A DNA stretch of 59,128 nucleotides from IMG/VR virus record IMGVR_UViG_3300048554_000481, positions 1 to 59,128 of that record. The stretch is one strand, 5' to 3'. A program made the position numbers and the translations under genes. The stretch's first letter is position 1, and each line of letters starts with the position of its first letter. The notes beneath the pieces were generated by a model. That model was given only the letters and a program-made list of their open reading frames with translations, did no database searches and was not told where the DNA came from. Below, one piece after another: positions 31,958-47,677 of the stretch. Source of the DNA: a virus (taxonomy: Duplodnaviria; Caudoviricetes).

Positions 31958-33073
31958 TTAATCTGATCTTTCTCCAACACCATAATCTATTGTTACAGGA
32001 AATCTAGGGATACCATCATTGCTCAATTCAAAGTATCTGCAAGTTGCCCAGTCTATATTTGGGTTTTCCAACAGTGTCTTTAACTGTGCTTGCGAACCTC
32101 TTAGTCCACTACTAAATGTTGTACCATCTTTCATTTTAAGAGTAAGTCTTTTAGCATATCCTGTCCAGGCACCTTGCCCTTCATGTACTTCAACTACTTC
32201 GTACTCTTCAGTAACAAACTCTTTTCTTTTAAGTAGACTCTTGCTACGTTTACACTGGTAAGGAGCATCCTGTCGTACCATCTGTCCTTCGTAACCAGCT
32301 TCTGTATACTCGCCATACAGCCTATCAATATCTGCACTGTTGTTTGCAACGTCTGTGTGTACAAGCACAATCATATTGCCCGACACATTATTAGCTAACC
32401 ATACCGAACGATCCATAAACAGTTTATCAGGATCATTTTTATCATACATATCGTAGATATGATATTCAACTAGTTCTGCACTTTCTGCAATCTCTTCTGG
32501 TCTGCACTTTACTTTACGAACCAAGCTAACAATCTTTTGAAAGTCTGCTTTAAGTTCATGATTGTAAAGTTCACCATCTAATACAACATTTGGGTTAGCT
32601 TCAATGATATGCTTTACACTTTCCCAAATATGTGGGCAACTGTTAATAGGCTTACCGCCTCTGGTGTGCATACCATGCTTGTCAATTACACAACGGATAC
32701 CATCTAATTTGGGTTGTGTAAATCCATCCTCAACTGGAGTTTTTGTAAAGTCGTGTGCTAACATAGGCTTGAACAGTTCGTAACTGTCAATATCATCTAT
32801 GTTTGCAAAATACTCTTTGTCAGCTTTTTTAGTCCATTCAGCTTGTGCTTCGAACTCAGCTTGACCTTTAGCAGTAGTAGCATTGCTTCTACCCACATTC
32901 TTTGCTATGCTCATATTCCAAACACTGGTGATCTTCTCACCATCAACTAGACCACTAATGCTACGGATACCAGCCATATCTTCATTGTCAAATCCAACTT
33001 CAACAGTCCATATTCTAACTTTACCTTTTGAATCTCTTTTGTAAAGTGGATCTAAACTAACTATATTCTGCAT
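31958..33073 (-). CDS. lig: ATP-dependent DNA ligase
   Basis: QPKLDGIRC, LDGELY, YEGQMVR, LLKRK, IPRFP. Confidence 0.92.
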   Translation of the reverse strand: MQNIVSLDPLYKRDSKGKVRIWTVEVGFDNEDMAGIRSISGLVDGEKITSVWNMSIAKNVGRSNATTAKGQAEFEAQAEWTKKADKEYFANIDDIDSYELFKPMLAHDFTKTPVEDGFTQPKLDGIRCVIDKHGMHTRGGKPINSCPHIWESVKHIIEANPNVVLDGELYNHELKADFQKIVSLVRKVKCRPEEIAESAELVEYHIYDMYDKNDPDKLFMDRSVWLANNVSGNMIVLVHTDVANNSADIDRLYGEYTEAGYEGQMVRQDAPYQCKRSKSLLKRKEFVTEEYEVVEVHEGQGAWTGYAKRLTLKMKDGTTFSSGLRGSQAQLKTLLENPNIDWATCRYFELSNDGIPRFPVTIDYGVGERSD

Positions 33074-34293: not shown

Positions 34294-34656
34294 ATGAGTA
34301 CATTATTCTTATTTTTATTGTTAATCAAACACAGTATATGCGACTTAGCACTACAAAGTAGATTTGTTAACAAACACGGTGATAAGAAAAATCTTACAGA
34401 CCTTAAAGGTTATCTACATGCAGGTGACCACGCAATGGGAACATTTTTAGTAGCTCTACTCTTTGTAGGTATTTTGCCTGCATTGGGTGTTGCTATTGCA
34501 GACTTTGTACTGCATTTTATAATTGATTATACTAAACGCAGATACACACTTGCGAAAAACATTAAACAAAGTAATCGTAAATTTTGGTACATACAAAGTA
34601 TTGACCAAATGGCACACTATGGTTGCTATTTTATTTTTGTAATAATTCTTATATAG
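34294..34656 (+). CDS. DUF3307-like membrane protein
   Basis: KHSICDLALQ, H..IDY.K, DQMAH. Confidence 0.75.
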   Translation: MSTLFLFLLLIKHSICDLALQSRFVNKHGDKKNLTDLKGYLHAGDHAMGTFLVALLFVGILPALGVAIADFVLHFIIDYTKRRYTLAKNIKQSNRKFWYIQSIDQMAHYGCYFIFVIILI

Positions 34657-35815
34657 ATTCCAAATACTCTAAGGTCATCGGACCTATAACATCGACTGCT
34701 TTCATTTTACGCTGTGCAAGATAAAATTTAGTGTCATTTGCAATGTCTACCAAATCACGTTTAACACTTTTATTCATTCTTATTGAAGTCAACGTCGACG
34801 ATGTGTCAGGATTCTTTAATTGTCCGTGAACCTTATCGATTAACCAATTTGGTAAGTTCATACAGTTTAGTACACTATTGTCTGGTTTGATACCAAAAGT
34901 TAACATATATTTCCATTTTTTCTTATGAAAAAATTCTTCAATCTGAGGCAAATACTCGAAGTTGTACAAGTTTACTAGTAAGCTAATTTTTACATCCAAT
35001 ACTTTACTTCGGTGTGAAAATATAAAGTCTAAATTTTCTTCCATTTTCTTCCAAGTATGAGGCCAGCGTATGAATTCATAATTTTTATGTATTCCGTCTG
35101 TACTGATCCTAATTCTAGCCTGTTTGGTTTTAGATAATCTACGAATAATTTCATCATTCATTACGGTTCCGTTTGTAGTAATTTGTAATTCTAGTTGAGA
35201 ACAATCAATTTCATCTAATACTTTTTCAATGGGTTTCCAATTCTCTATTAACAAAGGTTCACCACCTTTTATATGAATGCTTTTTACCTTATAGTTTCTG
35301 AGAATATCAGCTGTAAGATTTGTTATATCTGCGTTTTTTGGTTGCTTGTCAATGTAGGTGTTCCAATGTTCAGGTAACTCTGCTTTTTGATACTTTGCTG
35401 ATACAGTTTCTATCAGACTACTCGTATTACCGTTACAAAACACACAAGCAAGATTGCATACATTACTTAAATCTAAATCTAGTCTTAGGAAATCAAAATC
35501 TGTTTTGTCATCTTTGCTTTGTCGGTTTATCACAGTTCTAGGACTGTCTACCATTGCCTTTTCTAAATTAGTGCAATTTATACATGAAGGATGTAAGTGT
35601 GAAGGATTTTCTTTAAACCATTTTTGATAATATTCTCTAGTAGGATGTTTTAAAATGCTTTGTACATCTACTTTGATATGCTTATATTGATCTTGTGGAA
35701 TCAGAGCCTTATGTGTATTACAACAAGGTCGGACATTAGTTAACAATTGATTATTTTGGTCAGGGTGAAAAGTAAGTCTGAGACCTTTATCAACATAGGC
35801 GCAGTAGTTATTCAT
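34649..35815 (-). CDS. Radical SAM protein with N-terminal twitch domain
   Basis: VRPCC..CINC; SNVCNLACVFC; GGEPLL; TTNGT. Confidence 0.85.
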   Translation of the reverse strand: MNNYCAYVDKGLRLTFHPDQNNQLLTNVRPCCNTHKALIPQDQYKHIKVDVQSILKHPTREYYQKWFKENPSHLHPSCINCTNLEKAMVDSPRTVINRQSKDDKTDFDFLRLDLDLSNVCNLACVFCNGNTSSLIETVSAKYQKAELPEHWNTYIDKQPKNADITNLTADILRNYKVKSIHIKGGEPLLIENWKPIEKVLDEIDCSQLELQITTNGTVMNDEIIRRLSKTKQARIRISTDGIHKNYEFIRWPHTWKKMEENLDFIFSHRSKVLDVKISLLVNLYNFEYLPQIEEFFHKKKWKYMLTFGIKPDNSVLNCMNLPNWLIDKVHGQLKNPDTSSTLTSIRMNKSVKRDLVDIANDTKFYLAQRKMKAVDVIGPMTLEYLESI

Positions 35816-41959: not shown

Positions 41960-42058
41960 TTAACTATAAACCTAAACTCCACATCCATATAGGTATAATT
42001 ATAAAATGTAAAAGCAAACAGATACCAAGCATTAGGTAAACTGTTCGCTTTTGTGGGT

Positions 42059-42274
42059 TCATTTGTTTACATTCAAGTTGCTTGGATTGTACTGCTCACC
42101 GTTATACTGTGAACCTGTTTTACCAGCGTCAGTTTCAACTCCAAAGTTACAACTAGCCACTGCTAATAAAAAAGCAAGAGAAGCATAAACTCCATACTTA
42201 CTGTATTTTATAAATGCTCCAAATGTACGTTCTGCTTCTTCCTGTGCGGCTTGCCTTACGTCTAACTCCCCCAT
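42059..42274 (-). CDS. aa3-type cytochrome c oxidase subunit IV-like protein
   Basis: MGELDV..AERTFGAFIK plus one TM, resembling Paracoccus/Rhodobacter subunit IV. Confidence 0.55.
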   Translation of the reverse strand: MGELDVRQAAQEEAERTFGAFIKYSKYGVYASLAFLLAVASCNFGVETDAGKTGSQYNGEQYNPSNLNVNK

Positions 42275-42610
42275 CCAGCAAACTCCTCTTTGTTTTGCAT
42301 TCTGACGTGACGAGTAGGCAAATAGTTTTCTGTAGGGCCTAAACACTCCCAACCTGTTTCAGCTAACCATTCCACTAACTGAGTTTTACTACCAAACCTC
42401 ATTGATGAAGTTTCTCCTGTTCGTGCATTGAGTATTGTATAATTCATCCGTTTGCTCCAAAACAAGGTAACAATGGAGTCATGTTACAATAACGTGCATA
42501 GTCTTCCGGCCCTACCATTGCATAAGTTGTAGCAATTGGTACTCCTGCCATTACGAATAGAATTATAAGAAAGGCCCAGCCTAGTCCTTTAGTTGTACAA
42601 TAGTTTTCAC

Positions 42611-43015
42611 TCATGTGCGATTTCCTCTTAGTGCAAAAAATAATCCACCTACCCATAACAGTACATGGAAGTTATCGTATAGTATGACATCCCAAAAACT
42701 TTCTGGTTGACCTACCCAAATAACACCTGTCATAATACTACAAATTGTAATACCACAAAAACGTGTTAGTACATCACCATAGTCTCTGAGCCATGCCCAA
42801 CTTGCTAATAGACCAGCCACAAGTAAACCTACGCCTGCTCCTAATTCTCCATATGCAACAACCCACCATACCAAGTATGGAAGTTCAAATGATTCAGCAT
42901 CTTCTAGTGTTACTGGAAATTTACTCAAACCCTGTTGTATGAACACAATAGCCAGCGGTATTCGCAGTAGCCAATGGCTCATACAGAACTCAGGTATACG
43001 CTTTACAAAACTCAT
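42611..43015 (-). CDS. DoxX-family membrane protein
   Basis: LLRIPLAIVFIQQGLSK..VAYGELGAG. Confidence 0.75.
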   Translation of the reverse strand: MSFVKRIPEFCMSHWLLRIPLAIVFIQQGLSKFPVTLEDAESFELPYLVWWVVAYGELGAGVGLLVAGLLASWAWLRDYGDVLTRFCGITICSIMTGVIWVGQPESFWDVILYDNFHVLLWVGGLFFALRGNRT

Positions 43016-43437
43016 AGATCAGCTAACAATGCCTTTAGTTTTTTCTTGCTTTTGCCACGCACTTTAGCTTTGGATATATCGTTATCACCATCACCCACAA
43101 CTACAAGAGCAATCATACCCATTGAAGCATGTGGTGTACACTGATATAGATATACGCCTGGTGTATCAAATGTAATAGCAACTTCTTTACCATTCTTTGA
43201 TTTCTTGGGTGCATCCCATCCATCTGGACCTGCAATGAATTCTACATTGTGACCTTTTGAAGTTGGTACCCAAGTAATTGTATCGCCTACGTCAATACGA
43301 GCAATGTCTTCTGAGTAAACCATTTTGGCTCCGTCATCACGCTTGTTTAACATATCGATAGTTAAGTCTTCTCCAAATGCTGGAGTTAATGCAAACACTG
43401 CAAAAAACAGTGTGAGATATGATGTCAATACTTTCAT
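43012..43437 (-). CDS. Pseudoazurin (type-1 copper protein)
   Basis: Signal peptide; KGHNVE; YQCTPHASMGM. Confidence 0.9.
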   Translation of the reverse strand: MKVLTSYLTLFFAVFALTPAFGEDLTIDMLNKRDDGAKMVYSEDIARIDVGDTITWVPTSKGHNVEFIAGPDGWDAPKKSKNGKEVAITFDTPGVYLYQCTPHASMGMIALVVVGDGDNDISKAKVRGKSKKKLKALLADL

Positions 43438-43524
43438 TTAAGTTTCCCTTTTAATATGTTTGTATAATACTATATAGTACAGGTTGACCCGAAAATCAAC
43501 CTGTATTTGCACTTTATAAGTGTG

Positions 43525-43584
43525 TTATTTTGTAGCAGGCTTAGGGTTTAAAAAGTCTGCTTCTTCATCTGTATAGGGCCACAT
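43525..43584 (-). CDS. 19-aa peptide MWPYTDEEADFLNPKPATK
   Basis: TAATG-coupled to the upstream ORF; AGGA SD. Confidence 0.5.
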   Translation of the reverse strand: MWPYTDEEADFLNPKPATK

Positions 43585-43628
43585 TATTTTCCTACCCTTT
43601 TTCTATATGAATGATCTGGATCTAACAT
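43584..43628 (-). CDS. 14-aa peptide MLDPDHSYRKRVGK
   Basis: TAATG overlaps at both ends. Confidence 0.45.
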   Translation of the reverse strand: MLDPDHSYRKRVGK

Positions 43629-43816
43629 TATTTTTCGCCTCTGATTTCTTTAACTTCCATCATTAACTTTCTTGCTTCTTTGTGCATACCCATTCTAGTT
43701 AATTCTGCCGCGGCTCTTGATCTACCCGCAACTTCAAAAAATGTTCTAAATCCATTTAAGAAGTTCATTAGTAAGTCTCCTGTAGTTGCTGTGTATTCCA
43801 TTAGTAGTGTAGTCAT
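43628..43816 (-). CDS. 62-aa small protein
   Basis: GRSRAAAELTRMG motif; TAATG-coupled. Confidence 0.6.
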   Translation of the reverse strand: MTTLLMEYTATTGDLLMNFLNGFRTFFEVAGRSRAAAELTRMGMHKEARKLMMEVKEIRGEK

Positions 43817-44082
43817 TACACCCATCCTCTCAAGTTATCGTTAGCTTGTGTTTTAGTGTTCATTCCGTCTCTTCTCCAGTTACCTCTTGCAATACTTTCG
43901 ATATCACTACGACCAATTCCTAAGTCTTTTAGTTCATAGTCTGTAAGTTGTGAAAGTTCGTTTCTTGTTTGTCTAACCAGTTGTCTGTGTCTTGCTTTTG
44001 CTTTCATATCATGTACAAGTTCAAATAGTCCTTGAAATGCTTCTGAAAAAATGTTACCTACTGTTAAAATTGCTTGTGTCAT
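43816..44082 (-). CDS. DUF1127 (YjiS-like) small protein
   Basis: RQTRNELSQLTDYELKDLGIGRSDI. Confidence 0.88.
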   Translation of the reverse strand: MTQAILTVGNIFSEAFQGLFELVHDMKAKARHRQLVRQTRNELSQLTDYELKDLGIGRSDIESIARGNWRRDGMNTKTQANDNLRGWV

Positions 44083-44249
44083 TAGTTGTGTACTCCCATT
44101 CTTGGGCCTTTGCCCGTTGCTTTAATATGTTCATATGCGAATTTCCAATCTTTCCCATATTCTGTTCTTGCCCATGTGTGTATGTCGTTATCTTTGAGTG
44201 TCTTACGCTCAAACATGCTCACAAGGCTTCCTAATAGCTTTCTTGCCAT
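44082..44249 (-). CDS. 55-aa small protein, first gene of the DUF1127 operon
   Basis: AAGGAG SD; MARKLLGSLVSMF..WARTEYGKDWKFAY; TAATG overlap. Confidence 0.7.
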   Translation of the reverse strand: MARKLLGSLVSMFERKTLKDNDIHTWARTEYGKDWKFAYEHIKATGKGPRMGVHN

Positions 44250-44271
44250 TTTAGTCTCCTTTAAGTTTTAT

Positions 44272-44360
44272 GATGCTTGAGGGAAGCAATACCCCGGTCT
44301 GTTTCCGGCGTCACTTGTCTTTCCAAGTGCCACTCATTTTTTCTGAGCTGAGGTCGCTCG
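44272..44360 (-). ncRNA. Candidate structured leader RNA (multi-hairpin junction)
   Basis: GC-rich island with helices GCUCA/UGAGU, CACUUG/CAAGUG, CCGG/CCGG and UGCUU-CCCUC-AAGCA. Confidence 0.65.
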
Positions 44361-44475
44361 TAACATAAACACAGTTGTATTTTTATTACAACTATATTTA
44401 TATTATAGTACAGTCATTCTGTCCTATTTACTACTGCTTATGCAGTATACTCGTCATGCACTGAGTGCATAGCTT

Positions 44476-45531
44476 TTATTTACGGGTTGGATTTGGTTGG
44501 AAAAATACTTCCGGTGCTTGTGATGGTATCAAACTAGGAATGCCCGAATACAATGCACCTGACTTTCTAAGTTGATTTAAATTTTTACCATTAGAGCAAG
44601 TAATCATTGATGCGGCACCAATAGCTAAACTACACATTATTTCCCATTGACCGCCCATGTCTGGATTAGCTTTATACCAATCAAAATTAGCGGCAATATA
44701 TGCATCTAATACTGCATCAGGATTTGCATTAGGATTATCAAATGCTTGTACAATAGGACCTGCCATCTTATCAAATACTTGACCAAATATTGCATCACCT
44801 ACTGCTTTTCTTCTGCCTTGTCCGAATTCTATTTTGTTACACATATCAACAAACAATTTAAGATTCATAGTTTTCTTGCCACTGCCAAAGTAACCTTCTA
44901 GTGGTTGTTGAAATTCTGGGAACTTATTGAGTACAGCTAATACTCTTTCTTTGCTTACTCCGCCTTCACCCATTCGACCACTACCAGCTCCAACTTTAGC
45001 ACTGCTGGCAACTTTAAGTTCAACTGCTTTTCCCATTACATCGATATCACCTGTGCCTTTTTGCGAAATATCAGTACTAAGTATTGCTAGTGCATGTTCG
45101 CCTTTACCTGCACGTTGTTGTCCTGCTCCGAAGTCCATAAACTCCAAAAACATTTGTTCTACAAGCGGTCCGTTAAATATATCACTAATACTGTAATGTC
45201 CATCAGTTAAAAATGTACGAGTATTAACACATTTATTTGCTTGTAGTAAATCTAAGAACTCATTCTTTTGTTGTATATTAAGTCTATCACTAGCAACAAT
45301 CTTTTCAGCTATTGTTTTAATAGCGGCATCATTATATTCGCCTTGTAGTTTACTACTTACTACAGGTAAAAATCTATCAACTACACCGTTCTTTTGAACA
45401 ATGCTGTAGACTCTGTCAATTAGCTTTGCTTGTTCTTCGTCATTAGGATCGTAACTACCAACAGTTGCTAAGATTTCCTGTTTGGCTTGATTCGGATCTT
45501 CATACTCATTTAAAAATTGTGTTGCTCTCAT
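44476..45531 (-). CDS. Late protein with possible PD-(D/E)xK-like domain
   Basis: GKGEHALAIL..GDIDVMGKAVELK; ATAAATA immediately upstream. Confidence 0.55.
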   Translation of the reverse strand: MRATQFLNEYEDPNQAKQEILATVGSYDPNDEEQAKLIDRVYSIVQKNGVVDRFLPVVSSKLQGEYNDAAIKTIAEKIVASDRLNIQQKNEFLDLLQANKCVNTRTFLTDGHYSISDIFNGPLVEQMFLEFMDFGAGQQRAGKGEHALAILSTDISQKGTGDIDVMGKAVELKVASSAKVGAGSGRMGEGGVSKERVLAVLNKFPEFQQPLEGYFGSGKKTMNLKLFVDMCNKIEFGQGRRKAVGDAIFGQVFDKMAGPIVQAFDNPNANPDAVLDAYIAANFDWYKANPDMGGQWEIMCSLAIGAASMITCSNGKNLNQLRKSGALYSGIPSLIPSQAPEVFFQPNPTRK

Positions 45532-45542
45532 GTAATTATTTA

Positions 45543-46670
45543 TCAGTTACCTGTGGTGGTCGCTTCGTAGGTTTTGTTGAACTGATTGTTTACTTTGATA
45601 AATGTTGTACACTTGGCTAATTGTTTTAGTTTAATAGCACCCACATATGTGAGTGTACTGCGAACACCTCCTAGTACGTCTTGGAGTGTTACTGCAACAG
45701 GACCTCTGTAAGGAACAAGTACTGTACGTCCTTCACTGCTACGATAGTCTTTGAGCCCATCAAAATGTTTGTCATTTGCAGTTGTACTACTCATACCATA
45801 GAACTGTACAAACTGTTTCTCTTCAAATACTCTACTACCAGCACGGTCACATTCATTTGTCATATACTTTTTAGTAATTACTTCGCCGCCACCTTCATCG
45901 TGTCCGGCAAGCATACCACCCAGCATTACAAAATCGGCGCCGCCAGCGAAAGCCTTAGCCACATCACCAGGACAAGTACAGCCACCGTCAGCGATAATAT
46001 GTCCGCCAAGTCCATGCGCCGCATCGGCGCACTCAATAACTGCACTAAGTTGGGGATAGCCCACCCCAGTTTGTATGCGAGTCGTACAAACCGACCCTGG
46101 TCCAATTCCGACTTTGACGATGTCTGCTCCATTTAGTATTAACTCCTGTGTTTGATCTGCGGTAACTACATTACCTGCAATAATTACCAAGTTAGGATAA
46201 TTTTGTCTAAAGTCTCTAACATATTCAATAAAACGTTGACTGTATCCATTTGCAACATCAATACAAACATACTTTAGTTTATCGCCTACTTGTTCGTATA
46301 CATTTCTAAACTTTTGTTCATCTTCTTCTTTTACACCAATACTCATAGCTACATGTTCTTTACGCCAAGCGGGTGCATCCTGTTTATCAAAATAATCTAC
46401 TAGTTCGCCTACACTATATGTTTTAACTAAGCAAGTGAAAATACTTTTCTCACCTAGTGTGTCAGCCATTTCGAATGTACCAACACCATCCATGTTGCTA
46501 GCCATAATCGGAATGCCTTCATAATGGCAATCATCTTTTAAAGGAATATTGTAATGTCTAAATTCAAATTTGCGGTCCATCCGCACTTGTTTACGACTAC
46601 CTAGTGTGCTTCGCTTGGGTCTAATCAAGACATCACTGTAGTCAAGTTTAACTTCGTCTTCTATTCTCAT
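45543..46670 (-). CDS. guaC: GMP reductase
   Basis: KLDYSDVLIRPKRSTL.SR, DVANGYS, GIGPGSVCTTR, IIADGGC, SEG. Confidence 0.93.
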   Translation of the reverse strand: MRIEDEVKLDYSDVLIRPKRSTLGSRKQVRMDRKFEFRHYNIPLKDDCHYEGIPIMASNMDGVGTFEMADTLGEKSIFTCLVKTYSVGELVDYFDKQDAPAWRKEHVAMSIGVKEEDEQKFRNVYEQVGDKLKYVCIDVANGYSQRFIEYVRDFRQNYPNLVIIAGNVVTADQTQELILNGADIVKVGIGPGSVCTTRIQTGVGYPQLSAVIECADAAHGLGGHIIADGGCTCPGDVAKAFAGGADFVMLGGMLAGHDEGGGEVITKKYMTNECDRAGSRVFEEKQFVQFYGMSSTTANDKHFDGLKDYRSSEGRTVLVPYRGPVAVTLQDVLGGVRSTLTYVGAIKLKQLAKCTTFIKVNNQFNKTYEATTTGN

Positions 46671-47036: not shown

Positions 47037-47471
47037 TTATTTGATAGCGATTGTTTTAGGTTTCTTTTCCTCTGGAATGATTCGCTCTAGTTCAATATAA
47101 AGCATACCGTTTTCCATTCTAGAACCTTGCACTACAATATCGTCTGTAAGTGTGAAGTTACGTTTGAAAGTTCTTTGGGCAATGCCTTTGTGTAGCCATT
47201 CCCATCCTTTAGGCTCTACTTCGCCTTCTGGTTTGTGTTCAATAGTAAGTACACCTTCCGCGACTGTGATAGTCAAATCCTCTTTTGCAACGCCTGCTAG
47301 GGCAATCTCAATTTGGAATTTTTCACCGTCTTTTACAATGTTGTAGGGAGGGTATCCGCCTGTGCTATTTTGATTGTGTTCGATGTAGTTAAACATGTTG
47401 TCAAATACTCTATCGAAGCCTACTGCATAAGGCGTTAGTTTATTAATGTCGAGGGTTGTTAATCTATTCAT
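47037..47471 (-). CDS. Small heat-shock protein Hsp20 (IbpA-like)
   Basis: GFDR, YPPYNI, IEIALAG, HKGIAQRTF, NGML, PEEKKPKTIAI. Confidence 0.93.
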   Translation of the reverse strand: MNRLTTLDINKLTPYAVGFDRVFDNMFNYIEHNQNSTGGYPPYNIVKDGEKFQIEIALAGVAKEDLTITVAEGVLTIEHKPEGEVEPKGWEWLHKGIAQRTFKRNFTLTDDIVVQGSRMENGMLYIELERIIPEEKKPKTIAIK

Positions 47472-47529
47472 TTGCTATCTCCTTTATTAAGCAAGATTAT
47501 AAATGTAGACCCATCATTGGCATCTACAT
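47472..47529 (-). promoter_or_regulatory. ROSE-like RNA thermometer in the hsp20 leader
   Basis: UCUUGCUU-AAUA-AAGGAGA (U(U/C)GCU anti-SD, bulged G) preceded by hairpin AUGUAGA../..UCUACAU. Confidence 0.65.
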
Positions 47530-47677
47530 GTTTATTTATTAAACTAGGAACTAACCATGGTTCCTAACGAGCTTATTAAGTAGCTACCCTTTCTTATCTA
47601 TGTACTTGTATTTCTTCTAACGTCTTGTTCTTATCTGTTTCGCTCTGACTGTAATCCTATTACTGTCAAGTTATTAA

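What the first reader, a model, noticed from the sequence alone, without database searches (positions are those of the whole stretch)
43525..44360. Structured leader ahead of five TAATG-coupled small ORFs centred on DUF1127
Seen: ORFs of 55, 88 (DUF1127), 62, 14 and 19 aa are each joined by an exact TAATG stop/start overlap (44082, 43816, 43628, 43584). Three are missed by the ORF track. Upstream is a GC-rich leader of about 90 nt with three purine-loop hairpins and a CCCUC-loop hairpin near the SD. Known: alphaproteobacterial DUF1127 proteins bind RNA, and Rhodobacter CcaF1 is co-transcribed with CCUCC-loop CcsR sRNAs. Inference: a phage micro-protein and RNA module that rewires host post-transcriptional control.
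Basis: partly seen in the sequence, partly recalled or inferred. Interest (0 to 1): 0.8.

Follow-up and report, generated by a model that had tools for sequence, protein, structure and literature searches.

The report
Structured leader before phage micro-protein operon
An uncultured marine T4-like giant phage carries a small operon of five overlapping mini-genes (one a DUF1127 protein, two only 14 and 19 codons long) behind a folded RNA leader. Both the leader and the tiny genes are conserved in over a hundred related phage contigs, so this looks like a real, undescribed regulatory RNA and micro-protein module.

Summary
On the minus strand, ORFs of 55, 88 (DUF1127, Pfam E 1e-11), 62, 14 and 19 aa are chained by exact TAATG overlaps. 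Upstream lie three purine-loop hairpins and a CCCUC-loop hairpin.

The module is conserved. A covariance model of the leader hits once per locus in 79 of 82 related loci. Four helices show compensatory changes: 95.6% of cells paired against 77.7% in shuffles, and 24 of 28 pairs have double changes. The CCUC hairpin and its flanks, about 25 nt, are nearly invariant. Rfam 15 has no match.

The 19-aa peptide (MWPYT[DE][DE]E..) recurs in 46 of 68 loci and the 14-aa one (M[LI]DP[DN]H[ST]Y..) in 18 of 68, both with mostly third-codon-position variation. TAATG makes up 139 of 215 cassette junctions.

A T4-type late-promoter octamer precedes the leader, and a hairpin follows the last peptide. Contigs from four RNA-library studies cover this unit.

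Best reading: a late-transcribed, translationally coupled micro-protein operon gated by a new cis-acting 5' leader RNA. Its effector is unknown.

DUF1127 is frequent but not constant (45 of 57 loci). Rewiring of host post-transcriptional control is not shown. The leader is not a Cuckoo/CcsR RNA.

The parts
44395..44402 (-). TATAAATA, T4-type late-promoter-like octamer; predicted start of transcription about 6-12 nt downstream
   Evidence: One search gives the position. ATAAATA occurs once in the 300 nt upstream of ORF1 in 49 of 53 distinct loci, and the full octamer in 35 of 53. It is followed by N3-4 GTG in most. That this octamer is the T4 late-promoter consensus is recalled knowledge. None of the four RNA-library runs laid has contigs over 44372-44579, which is only a weak hint.
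44373..44393 (-). 5'-proximal hairpin AGUUGUA/UACAACU at the predicted 5' end of the mRNA
   Evidence: Read. Other loci have a different hairpin at the same place directly after the promoter (MFE of L066).
44327..44359 (-). 5' module GAGCGACCUCAGCUCAGAAAAAAUGAGUGGCAC with hairpin GCUCA/UGAGU (44348-44332)
   Evidence: MFE. The same module occurs in L003, L004, L006, L009-L011, L029, L033, L044 and L080. Most other loci have ACACAYAGACAC instead.
44312..44329 (-). Hairpin CACUUG/CAAGUG with loop GAAAGA (type 'NAWAGA loop closed by G-C')
   Evidence: MFE. Homologous hairpins show compensatory changes (helices 1 and 3; raw sequences).
44294..44308 (-). Hairpin CCGG/CCGG with loop AAACAGA
   Evidence: MFE. 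Helix 4 is 99.5% paired and all 4 pairs have double changes. Variant stems are CCCUG/CAGGG, CCGAG/CUCGG, CCUAG/CUAGG and CUGG/CCAG.
44272..44297 (-). Nearly invariant core CCGGGGUAUUGCUUCCCUCAAGCAUC, including hairpin UGCUU/AAGCA with loop CCCUC (44288-44274)
   Evidence: MFE; alignment. Helix 5 hardly varies, so conservation and energy support it but covariation does not.
44256..44261 (-). Shine-Dalgarno AAGGAG of ORF1, 6 nt before the ATG
   Evidence: conserved AAGGAG in the alignment.
44082..44249 (-). ORF1, 55 aa, 'TEYGxDW' family; no Pfam match; predicted two-helix hairpin
   Evidence: The family has 187 clusters among 1.84 billion representatives, all small and unnamed. AlphaFold gives pLDDT 70 and two helices.
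43816..44082 (-). ORF2, 88 aa, DUF1127 with a phage-type N-terminal extension and an NLRGWV tail; the tail codons carry the SD of ORF3
   Evidence: PF06568, E 1.2e-11; alignment A9; 86 relatives, all from metagenomes.
43628..43816 (-). ORF3, 62 aa, family with the core AGR[AS]RAAxELxRxG..EA[KR]xLM; no Pfam match
   Evidence: Present in 44 of 57 distinct loci.
43584..43628 (-). ORF4, 14 aa, family M[LI]DP[DN]H[ST]Y... (usually 20 aa ending KKKGGK, whose codons form the SD of the next ORF)
   Evidence: Found in 18 of 68 loci with at least 1500 nt downstream. There are 13 distinct versions and all 13 start in TAATG. Ser codons switch between TCA and AGT. Pairwise differences by codon position are 0.19/0.055/0.39.
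43525..43584 (-). ORF5, 19 aa, family MWPYT[DEN][DE]Ex[DE][WF][LIV]xG[KR]; usually the last ORF of the unit
   Evidence: Found in 46 of 68 loci. Of 32 distinct versions (one doubtful), 28 start in TAATG. Differences by codon position are 0.17/0.12/0.52 over codons 2-12.
43479..43504 (-). Terminator-like hairpin ACAGGUUGA(UU)/(GG)UCAACCUGU after ORF5, without a clear U tract
   Evidence: -16.0 kcal/mol. In 23 of 29 distinct contexts a hairpin of -12 kcal/mol or stronger lies within 85 nt after the G-family ORF. The mean is -15.5 against -7.6 for shuffles, and some are classic stem plus U-run terminators.

Best explanation
This is one transcription unit of about 900 nt in an uncultured marine T4-like giant phage.

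A T4-type late promoter (TATAAATA, 44402-44395) drives an mRNA with a 5' UTR of about 140 nt. That UTR is a conserved, multi-hairpin RNA of a family not in Rfam. It has variable numbers of covarying hairpins with NAWAGA or AAA loops. It ends in a nearly invariant 25-nt element with a YCCUC-loop hairpin, then an A-rich spacer, then the SD of the first cistron.

Only the first cistron has a free-standing ribosome-binding region. The next four (DUF1127, the AGRARAA protein, a 14-aa peptide and a 19-aa peptide) start inside TAATG. The SD of each is encoded in the last codons of the preceding ORF, so their translation follows that of the first.

The leader therefore most likely acts in cis. It would set translation initiation, and perhaps the stability, of the whole micro-protein set in fixed proportions, in response to a factor that recognises the invariant core. 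That factor could be a protein, possibly one of the operon's own products, or a small molecule. A hairpin after the last peptide ends or punctuates the unit.

Shown: the anatomy, conservation, covariation, coding-type constraint on the tiny ORFs, and presence in RNA libraries.

Inferred: the late promoter, coupling as the mechanism, cis regulation, and the effector.

What the micro-proteins do is open. Their frequent neighbours suggest a link to host respiration or membrane energetics: pseudoazurin-like cupredoxin, DoxX, an alternative-oxidase-like protein (named from its sequence; no family search run), ATP synthase c and a weak cytochrome oxidase IV-like match. This link is weak.
For: Anatomy.

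Spread: 133 viral contigs encode an ORF1 relative, of which the best 80 were kept.

Leader model: R1 hits at E 2e-5 or better exactly once, directly upstream of the first cistron, in 79 of 82 loci with ORF1, the window included at E 6e-12. It hits nowhere else in the 59-kb window. It occurs once per record in five large related contigs, including one of 306 kb that is 87% complete.

Covariation on the model-fitted alignment (53 distinct rows): 95.6% of cells paired against 77.7% in shuffles (0 of 500 reach it). 24 of 28 pairs have double changes. The score is 0.333 against at most 0.061 when partners are slid.

Covariation on a structure-blind MAFFT alignment of 24 of the 31 'main-type' leaders: 97.1% paired, score 0.239 against at most 0.058 slid, 0 of 500 shuffles.

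Strand: G-U pairs in the helices place the structure on the sense RNA strand.

Not coding: the core lies in all three frames relative to ORF1.

The leader goes with the operon, not with one gene. Of 75 assessable contigs with the core 20-mer, 66 have ORF1 next, 3 have DUF1127, 3 have an ORF3-like gene, 2 have a hybrid and 1 is unresolved.

Coupling: TAATG makes 139 of 215 junctions against 12 of 79 in the window background.

Peptides.

Unit ends: promoter octamer and hairpin.

RNA: contigs of four RNA-library runs from four studies cover 43471-44371. One 808-nt contig spans 43471-44278, and a 299-nt contig with no mismatch spans 44035-44333, joining leader, ORF1 and the start of ORF2.

Initiation region: it is more folded than in other genes of the window. 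The predicted unpaired probability is SD 0.34 and AUG 0.16 over 51 leaders, against 0.48 and 0.45 for 31 other genes.
Against: - No effector is identified and no switch is demonstrated.
- In the MFE folds the SD is unpaired.
- Complementarity between the YCCUC loop and the SD is weak in the window (4 pairs by eye) and does not covary.
- Hairpins are gained and lost between loci: the window lacks two that most relatives have. That fits a loose scaffold or stabiliser better than a compact aptamer.
- TATAAATA is not enriched in the window (5 found, about 8 expected on both strands).
- The late sigma factor was not looked for.
- RNA-library contigs cannot show strand, ends or level, and DNA may be present in such libraries.
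- The model-fitted alignment leans towards the structure.
- The initiation-region comparison is a thermodynamic prediction with a small difference for the SD.
Confidence: 0.6

Rival explanations
1. The leader is above all a source of a stable, trans-acting small RNA. It would be cut from the 5' UTR, and its YCCUC loop would pair with Shine-Dalgarno regions of host or phage mRNAs. This is the way CcsR/Cuckoo RNAs next to DUF1127 genes are thought to work.
For: The loop is pyrimidine-rich and anti-SD-like, and it is almost invariant. In alphaproteobacteria Cuckoo RNAs lie in the 5' or the 3' UTR of DUF1127 genes, and CcaF1 binds and affects them (PMC8034643, passages seen). In one RNA run the summed contig depth over the leader is several-fold that over the ORFs. 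The tool warns that such depths cannot rank parts, and the conserved core pools reads from many relatives.
Against: Only one such loop is present, it has no CCUCCUCCC motif, and no Cuckoo-type family hits even at E up to 10. No terminator or U tract lies between the leader and ORF1. The leader also stands before operons without DUF1127. The depth excess is absent in the other three runs.
Confidence: 0.12
2. The leader has no switching role. It is a stack of protective and spacing hairpins that stabilises a late mRNA against 5'-end-dependent decay, and the invariant core is only a strong ribosome stand-by or enhancer site.
For: There is a hairpin at the very 5' end in most loci. Internal hairpins come and go in modules. 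The SD is free in the MFE structures.
Against: A 25-nt stretch is held invariant across loci whose ORF1 proteins are only 35-50% identical. Loop sequences are conserved (NAWAGA). The element is single-copy per genome although these phages have many late genes.
Confidence: 0.15
3. The invariant core acts at the DNA level. It would be an operator with the inverted repeat TGCTT..AAGCA, or an internal promoter, rather than an RNA element.
For: The core hardly covaries (helix 5), and it contains a short inverted repeat with a fixed spacer.
Against: It lies 110-200 nt downstream of the conserved promoter octamer and is embedded in helices that covary with G-U pairs on the sense strand. By eye the sigma-70-like hexamers inside it are poor, and the promoter scan listed nothing there.
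Confidence: 0.05
4. The 14- and 19-aa ORFs are not functional peptides. They would be translated only as relays that keep ribosomes on the mRNA up to the terminal hairpin, and their conservation would reflect RNA signals (SD, stop/start overlaps).
For: The C-terminal codons of the 14/20-aa family spell the SD of the next ORF (AAAGGAGGAAAATAATG in relatives). The 19-aa family is nearly always the last ORF before a hairpin.
Against: Variation is concentrated at third codon positions, including in codons that were not used to find the family. Ser codons switch between TCA and AGT in the 14-aa family. The MWPYT peptide is kept behind six different upstream genes: cupredoxin, the 80-84-aa family, the 44-aa family, the 20-aa family, a 34-aa membrane peptide and DUF1127.
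Confidence: 0.2

Closest known systems
CcaF1 (DUF1127) with CcsR/'Cuckoo' RNAs of Rhodobacter and relatives (CIN1 loci)
   Same: A small DUF1127 protein is co-transcribed with hairpin RNA that carries a pyrimidine-rich, anti-SD-like loop. According to PMC8034643 (passages) the RNAs can lie in the 5' or the 3' UTR.
   Different: Here only one hairpin has a YCCUC loop, without CCUCCUCCC. The other hairpins have purine-rich loops. No Rfam family matches. The RNA precedes a five-cistron operon whose first gene is usually not DUF1127, and it persists where DUF1127 is absent. The carrier is a phage, not an alphaproteobacterium.
uORF- and Rho-dependent attenuation of duf1127-1 in Sinorhizobium meliloti (PMC12218461; abstract and Discussion read)
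   Same: A DUF1127 gene lies behind an upstream ORF and a leader in which a C-rich element and the RBS can pair. Expression depends on translation of the upstream ORF.
   Different: Here the upstream ORF is a conserved 52-67-aa protein family that overlaps the DUF1127 start by TAATG. There is no intercistronic region where termination could occur. The pyrimidine element lies upstream of the RBS, in a hairpin loop.
Translationally coupled small-gene operons of phages and bacteria (stop/start overlaps such as TAATG and ATGA)
   Same: Stop and start codons overlap, with the SD embedded in the preceding ORF.
   Different: The regularity is unusual: 65% of junctions use the same pentamer over up to eight cistrons. 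So is the size of the conserved products, down to 13 aa.
freshwater-2 RNA (Rfam RF02980), a cis-regulatory motif from metagenomes
   Same: It has hairpins followed by an A/U-rich spacer, then AAGGAG and ATG (consensus shown). It occurs in the same group of phages: 48.4 and 49 bits against a gathering score of 49.9, one hit about 420 nt downstream of the gp23 capsid gene.
   Different: The leader studied here scores only 16.7-20.3 bits, and mostly through the SD region. It is a different motif. The paper's supplement that describes freshwater-2 could not be seen. The main text holds no mention of it.
Gene 32 translational operator of phage T4 (recalled knowledge, not tested)
   Same: A folded nucleation element at the 5' end is followed by an unstructured A/U-rich stretch that runs into the RBS. 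A nucleic-acid-binding product of the same mRNA can spread over this stretch.
   Different: There is no sequence or structural likeness. Autoregulation here is only a hypothesis.

Membership tests
DUF1127 (Pfam PF06568) | Profile match above the curated gathering score | tested here: met
   ORF2 scores 44.6 bits against a cut-off of 23.3, E 1.2e-11, residues 37-62. The genome-level search gives 46.1 bits.
DUF1127 (CcaF1-type RNA-binding protein) | Binds RNA and alters sRNA maturation or turnover | not testable with these tools
   Known for CcaF1 only (PMC8034643). Other DUF1127 proteins act on PhoR (PMC12501420, listing and abstract start only).
Cuckoo / CcsR RNAs (Rfam ar14 and relatives) | Two hairpins per RNA, each loop with the CCUCCUCCC motif (PMC8034643) | tested here: not met
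   There is one hairpin with loop CCCUC (UCCUC in most relatives). The other loops are GAAAAAA, GAAAGA and AAACAGA.
Cuckoo / CcsR RNAs (Rfam ar14 and relatives) | Match to the Rfam covariance model | tested here: not met
   No Rfam family matches at E up to 1 in 42000-46000. At E up to 10 on the leader alone only chance miRNA and other hits appear, far below their gathering scores.
freshwater-2 RNA (RF02980) | Score at or near the gathering score of 49.9 bits | tested here: not met
   16.7 bits on L066 and 20.3 bits on the leader of G003. Other places in G001 and G003 reach 48.4 and 49 bits.
T4-type late transcription unit | TATAAATA element about 10 nt upstream of the start of transcription | tested here: met
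   The octamer lies at 44402-44395. ATAAATA is present in 49 of 53 distinct loci and the full octamer in 35 of 53. That this is the late-promoter consensus is recalled.
T4-type late transcription unit | Dependence on the phage late sigma factor and late timing | not tested
   Only a gp23-type capsid gene was sought and found in a related contig. The window itself was not searched for T4 core genes.
Translational coupling by termination-reinitiation | Overlapping stop and start codons with an SD inside the upstream ORF | tested here: met
   Four TAATG overlaps. Purine-rich SD-like runs lie 5-10 nt before each ATG. The overlaps are conserved in relatives.
Translational coupling by termination-reinitiation | Downstream translation depends on upstream translation | not testable with these tools
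   Needs stop/start mutants in a translation assay.
Riboswitch | Covarying stems around invariant junctions or loops, joined to an expression platform at the RBS | tested here: inconclusive
   The stems covary and the core is invariant. But hairpins are modular, and no alternative pairing with the SD is conserved.
Riboswitch | Specific ligand binding | not testable with these tools
   Needs in-line probing or a similar assay.
S. meliloti duf1127-1 type uORF attenuator | A short uORF followed by an intercistronic terminator region before the DUF1127 gene | tested here: not met
   ORF1 overlaps ORF2 by one base, so there is no intercistronic region. ORF1 is a conserved protein family.

The most novel reading that the evidence does not exclude
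The leader is a new class of sensor RNA specific to giant marine T4-like phages. Its invariant 25-nt core would bind either a metabolite or one of the operon's own micro-proteins, for example the arginine-rich DUF1127 protein. That binding would gate, through one ribosome entry site, the fixed-ratio synthesis of a set of effectors. The set includes two of the smallest conserved phage-encoded peptides known (13-23 aa). These effectors would act on the host's respiratory or energy machinery late in infection.
Probability: 0.25. Interest if true: 0.85.

Novelty: new variant of a known kind. Interest (0 to 1): 0.68.

Why it matters
- It gives a concrete and widespread candidate for a new cis-regulatory RNA family in phages. 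It occurs in at least 120 viral contigs and in ocean RNA libraries of four studies. It already has enough natural variation for covariation statistics.
- It shows that ORFs of 13-23 codons, which gene callers skip, are under coding-type constraint in phage genomes.
- It places DUF1127, a domain whose function is still debated, in a phage operon with defined partners. That offers a compact system to test whether DUF1127 proteins recognise RNA leaders.
- I found no paper describing phage-encoded DUF1127. The searches 'DUF1127 + phage' gave 10 papers and 'DUF1127 + viral' gave 4, all unrelated by title or abstract start.

Tried and rejected
- **blastn against phage records.** The cassette (distant mode) against 50,697 deposited phage records gave no match. 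tblastn with ORF1 gave none. tblastn with DUF1127 gave one weak hit in a Sinorhizobium phage.
- **RNAalifold on the plain MAFFT alignment.** I used 48 of the 50 distinct leaders and dropped L022 and L059. It gave only 4 pairs, because loops of different length put the stems out of register. I therefore built a model from 12 in-register leaders of the 31 'main-type' ones.
- **Is the ORF3 family a diverged DUF1127?** hhalign gives probability 0.15%, so rejected.
- **Complex of DUF1127 with ORF3.** The predicted-complex job gave no answer.
- **Fold of ORF1.** Two helices, pLDDT 70. No PDB match at E 0.001 or better; the best is E 6.
- **Protein atlas.** Only viral hypothetical clusters, at score 0.75.
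- **Is the 19-base promoter-region word a repeated phage promoter?** It occurs once in the window, so rejected.
- **Is TATAAATA enriched in the window?** No: 5 found against about 8 expected, although all 5 lie on the coding strand.
- **Loop-SD, loop-loop and loop-flank pairings examined by eye.** None was consistent across variants.
- **A host copy of the leader.** The core 20-mer has 6 exact hits in 185,579 species genomes. Three are full cassettes on contigs binned into MAGs of unrelated phyla, one contig being 335 kb; these are probably phage DNA. Three are chance matches inside genes. So there is no host clue.
- **RNA runs.** Stretches without cover (44372-44579 and most of the upstream gene) and the higher depth over the leader in one run are not used as evidence.
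- **Weinberg 2017.** The main text has no mention of freshwater-2 and the supplements are closed.
Full report
**What is there**

The window is an IMG/VR virus record of 59,128 bases, estimated 18% complete. On the minus strand between 44249 and 43525 lie five ORFs of 55, 88, 62, 14 and 19 codons. Each is joined to the next by TAATG, with the stop TAA and the start ATG sharing one A at 44082, 43816, 43628 and 43584. The second ORF is a DUF1127 protein (PF06568, 44.6 bits against a cut-off of 23.3). The first and third match no Pfam family. A purine-rich SD-like run lies 5-10 nt before each internal ATG, inside the last codons of the preceding ORF.

- GCUCA/UGAGU at 44348-44332
- CACUUG/CAAGUG with loop GAAAGA at 44329-44312
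- CCGG/CCGG with loop AAACAGA at 44308-44294
- UGCUU/AAGCA with loop CCCUC at 44288-44274

The SD follows at 44261-44256. Further upstream are a hairpin at 44393-44373 and the octamer TATAAATA at 44402-44395. After ORF5 comes a 9-11-bp hairpin at 43504-43479. Then come a cupredoxin gene and a DoxX gene.

**Relatives**

A scan of viral contigs with the ORF1 pair found 133 contigs that encode a relative, and the best 80 were kept. One related contig of 306 kb, 87% complete, has a T4 gp23-type capsid gene (E 2e-99). So the carriers are giant T4-like phages.

None is cultured. ORF1 has no tblastn hit in 50,697 deposited phage records, and DUF1127 has one weak hit. The protein relatives of ORF1 and of this DUF1127 subfamily come from metagenomes and carry no functional name.

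The cassette is modular. In 57 distinct loci with at least 1500 nt downstream, these families occur within 2.4 kb:

| Family | Loci (of 57) |
|---|---|
| DUF1127 | 45 |
| ORF3 family | 44 |
| MWPYT peptide | at least 36 |
| 44-aa family | 22 |
| cupredoxin | 17 |
| MLDPDH peptide | 14 |

The usual order is ORF1, DUF1127, ORF3 family, optional extras, MLDPDH peptide, MWPYT peptide, hairpin. TAATG accounts for 139 of the first 215 junctions. In the window, 12 of 79 minus-strand ORFs of 80 aa or more end that way.

**The tiny ORFs**

A pattern search in all forward frames found the MWPYT family in 49 of 82 loci, or 46 of the 68 with enough downstream sequence. It found the MLDPDH family in 21 of 82, or 18 of 68.

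The MWPYT family has 32 distinct nucleotide versions, one of them doubtful; 28 start in TAATG. All 13 versions of the MLDPDH family do.

Pairwise differences by codon position are 0.17/0.12/0.52 for MWPYT (codons 2-12) and 0.19/0.055/0.39 for MLDPDH. The first four codons after ATG were part of the search pattern, so their invariance is circular. The remaining codons still show the third-position excess: about 0.27/0.19/0.57 by my arithmetic. Ser is encoded by TCA in the window and by AGT in L022, L065 and L068.

The MWPYT peptide is kept behind six different upstream genes. These ORFs therefore behave as coding sequence. The C-terminal KKKGGK of the longer MLDPDH versions spells the SD of the next ORF, so part of its conservation is an RNA signal.

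**The leader**

The 190 nt upstream of ORF1 give 53 distinct sequences. All but a few end in the same core, CCGGGGUAUUGCUUYCCUCAAGCAUC. Upstream of it are one to four hairpins whose stems differ between loci while staying complementary. Examples are CCGG/CCGG, CCCUG/CAGGG, CCGAG/CUCGG and CCUAG/CUAGG in one helix, and GCUGCC/GGCAGU, ACACCC/GGGUGU and AGUACC/GGUACU in another.

I built a covariance model from 12 in-register leaders of the 31 'main-type' ones, with 28 pairs in five helices. It finds one strong match, at E 2e-5 or better, directly upstream of the first cistron in 79 of the 82 ORF1 loci. The exceptions are L059 and L063, which lack the leader, and L024, which is cut. The window matches at 44247-44384 with E 6e-12, and nothing else matches in the window. 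The model is single-copy in five large related contigs.

On the model-fitted alignment, 95.6% of cells are paired against 77.7% in shuffles (0 of 500 reach it). 24 of 28 pairs have changes on both sides. The covariation score is 0.333 against at most 0.061 when partners are slid. Such an alignment leans towards its structure, so I repeated the count on a plain MAFFT alignment of 24 of the 31 main-type leaders; the seven with indels were left out. There, 97.1% are paired, the score is 0.239 against at most 0.058, and 0 of 500 shuffles reach it. The compensatory changes fall in two helices, and the other two are invariant in that subset.

G-U pairs place the structure on the sense strand. The core lies in all three frames relative to ORF1, so it is not coding.

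The helix with the YCCUC loop hardly varies. It rests on conservation and folding energy, not on covariation.

The window's leader is a short version. It has the alternative 5' module (also in L003, L004, L006, L009-L011, L029, L033, L044 and L080), one NAWAGA hairpin, the CCGG hairpin and the core. It lacks two hairpins that most relatives have.

**What the leader goes with**

Of the 80 loci returned, 75 are assessable:
- 66 have an ORF1-family gene next (60 by pattern, 6 divergent ones by eye)
- 3 have DUF1127 directly
- 3 have an ORF3-like gene
- 2 have a hybrid
- 1 is unresolved

The leader also stands before operons that have no DUF1127 within 2.4 kb. It belongs to the operon, not to DUF1127.

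**Known RNA families**

Rfam 15 gives no match at E up to 1 over 42000-46000. On the leader alone, only chance hits appear at E up to 10.

The nearest is freshwater-2 (RF02980), at 16.7-20.3 bits, mostly through the SD region. The same phage group has near-threshold freshwater-2 matches elsewhere (48.4 and 49 bits), one about 420 nt downstream of the capsid gene. So that is another motif.

Cuckoo/CcsR RNAs are defined by two hairpins, each with a CCUCCUCCC loop (PMC8034643, passages). That definition is not met.

**Unit boundaries and expression**

ATAAATA occurs exactly once in the 300 nt upstream of ORF1 in 49 of 53 distinct loci, and the full octamer in 35. It lies 69-235 nt before the ATG and is usually followed by N3-4 GTG and a hairpin. 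I recall this octamer as the T4 late-promoter consensus. Late timing is therefore an inference.

A hairpin of -12 kcal/mol or stronger lies within 85 nt after the MWPYT ORF in 23 of 29 distinct contexts. Some are classic terminators.

Contigs of four RNA-library runs from four studies cover 43471-44371. One 808-nt contig runs from the terminal hairpin to the leader core. A 299-nt contig without mismatch joins the leader, ORF1 and the start of ORF2. Contigs cannot show strand, ends or level, and DNA can be present in such libraries, so I count this only as a hint of transcription.

**How it most likely works**

One ribosome entry site lies behind a dedicated, conserved, folded leader. Four overlapping cistrons follow. 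The simplest reading is that the leader sets the output of the whole set in fixed proportions.

The initiation region of ORF1 is predicted to be more folded than that of other genes in the window. Unpaired probability is SD 0.34 and AUG 0.16 over 51 leaders, against 0.48 and 0.45 for 31 other genes. This is a modest, purely thermodynamic difference.

The invariance of the 25-nt core, beside freely covarying stems, points to sequence-specific recognition by a protein or a ligand. Which one is unknown. Autoregulation by an operon product such as the arginine-rich DUF1127 protein is attractive, but the leader's presence in operons without DUF1127 weakens it.

The rivals are a processed trans-acting RNA, a plain stabiliser, and a DNA-level site. 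They are listed with their tests in the Rival explanations section.

**What the proteins do**

Nothing here shows it. ORF1 is predicted as a two-helix hairpin without a structural relative.

The frequent neighbours are a pseudoazurin-like cupredoxin, DoxX, an alternative-oxidase-like protein (recognised by eye in L064, no family search), ATP synthase subunit c, and a weak cytochrome oxidase IV-like match. They suggest a link to respiration and membrane energetics, but this is weak.

Published DUF1127 proteins bind RNA (CcaF1, PMC8034643) or the kinase PhoR (PMC12501420, abstract start only), or are induced during intracellular infection (YjiS, PMC11707872, abstract start only). So the domain alone does not predict a mechanism.

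**Verdict**

The leader is a candidate new cis-regulatory RNA family. It occurs in uncultured marine T4-like giant phages and is tied to an unusually regular operon of micro-proteins.

Noticed in passing
G001:C1:231966-232036 (-) and G003:C1:859-924 (-); weak match at window 47469-47545 (-): Near-threshold matches to the Rfam motif freshwater-2 (48.4 and 49 bits; gathering score 49.9) in related giant-phage contigs. In G001 the match lies about 420 nt downstream of the gp23-type capsid gene. The window has only a 16.9-bit match, upstream of the 144-aa ORF that starts at 47471.
   Followed up: partly
window 42611-43437 (-); L064:3329-3907; L076:3101-3322; L012:3427-3627: The cassette sits beside small respiratory-type genes. 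In the window these are a pseudoazurin-like cupredoxin (PF00127) and DoxX (PF07681). In relatives they are an alternative-oxidase-like 192-aa protein (by eye), ATP synthase subunit c (PF00137) and a 66-aa protein with a sub-threshold match to cytochrome oxidase subunit IV (PF07835, 19.5 bits against a cut-off of 22).
   Followed up: partly
window 44405-44427 (-): The inverted repeat ATAGGACAG..CTGTACTAT lies just upstream of the TATAAATA octamer here and in L001, L006 and L025. In many other loci (L027, L049, L057, L066, L068, L082) the same repeat lies just downstream of the octamer, as the first hairpin of the leader. So promoter and hairpin have swapped order between lineages.
   Followed up: no
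L018:3149-3388, L049:3149-3391, L001:3445-3696, L080:2898-3149, L082:1839-2054: Micro-proteins show domain shuffling. The tail YE[PA]GDHY..WKG[KH]A is fused either to a DUF1127 head or to an AGYGRAAN head. An N-terminal CxxC module is shared by the ORF3 family and by some DUF1127 proteins.
   Followed up: partly
L017:2480-2653; L080:2474-2674: Some ORF1 proteins end in NLKGWV or NLTGWI, the tail that normally ends the DUF1127 protein. It looks as if DUF1127 had been deleted in frame and its last codons, which carry the next SD, were kept.
   Followed up: no
L223, L225, L227 (genome contigs): Full copies of the leader and cassette lie on contigs binned into MAGs labelled Neomarinimicrobiota (one contig of 335 kb) and Flavobacteriales. 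These are probably phage contigs swept into the bins, so they are not usable as host evidence.
   Followed up: partly
L013:1524-1691; also L011 and L014: In some loci a 52-62-aa protein with a borderline DUF3563 match (27.1 bits against a cut-off of 26.9) takes the place of DUF1127 as second cistron.
   Followed up: no
window 31958-33073, 34649-35815, 45543-46670 (all -): The larger genes in the window match PHROGs for ATP-dependent DNA ligase (E 4e-63), a radical SAM protein (E 5e-15) and a dehydrogenase (E 6.5e-118). Six of the ten large ORFs tested match no PHROG.
   Followed up: no
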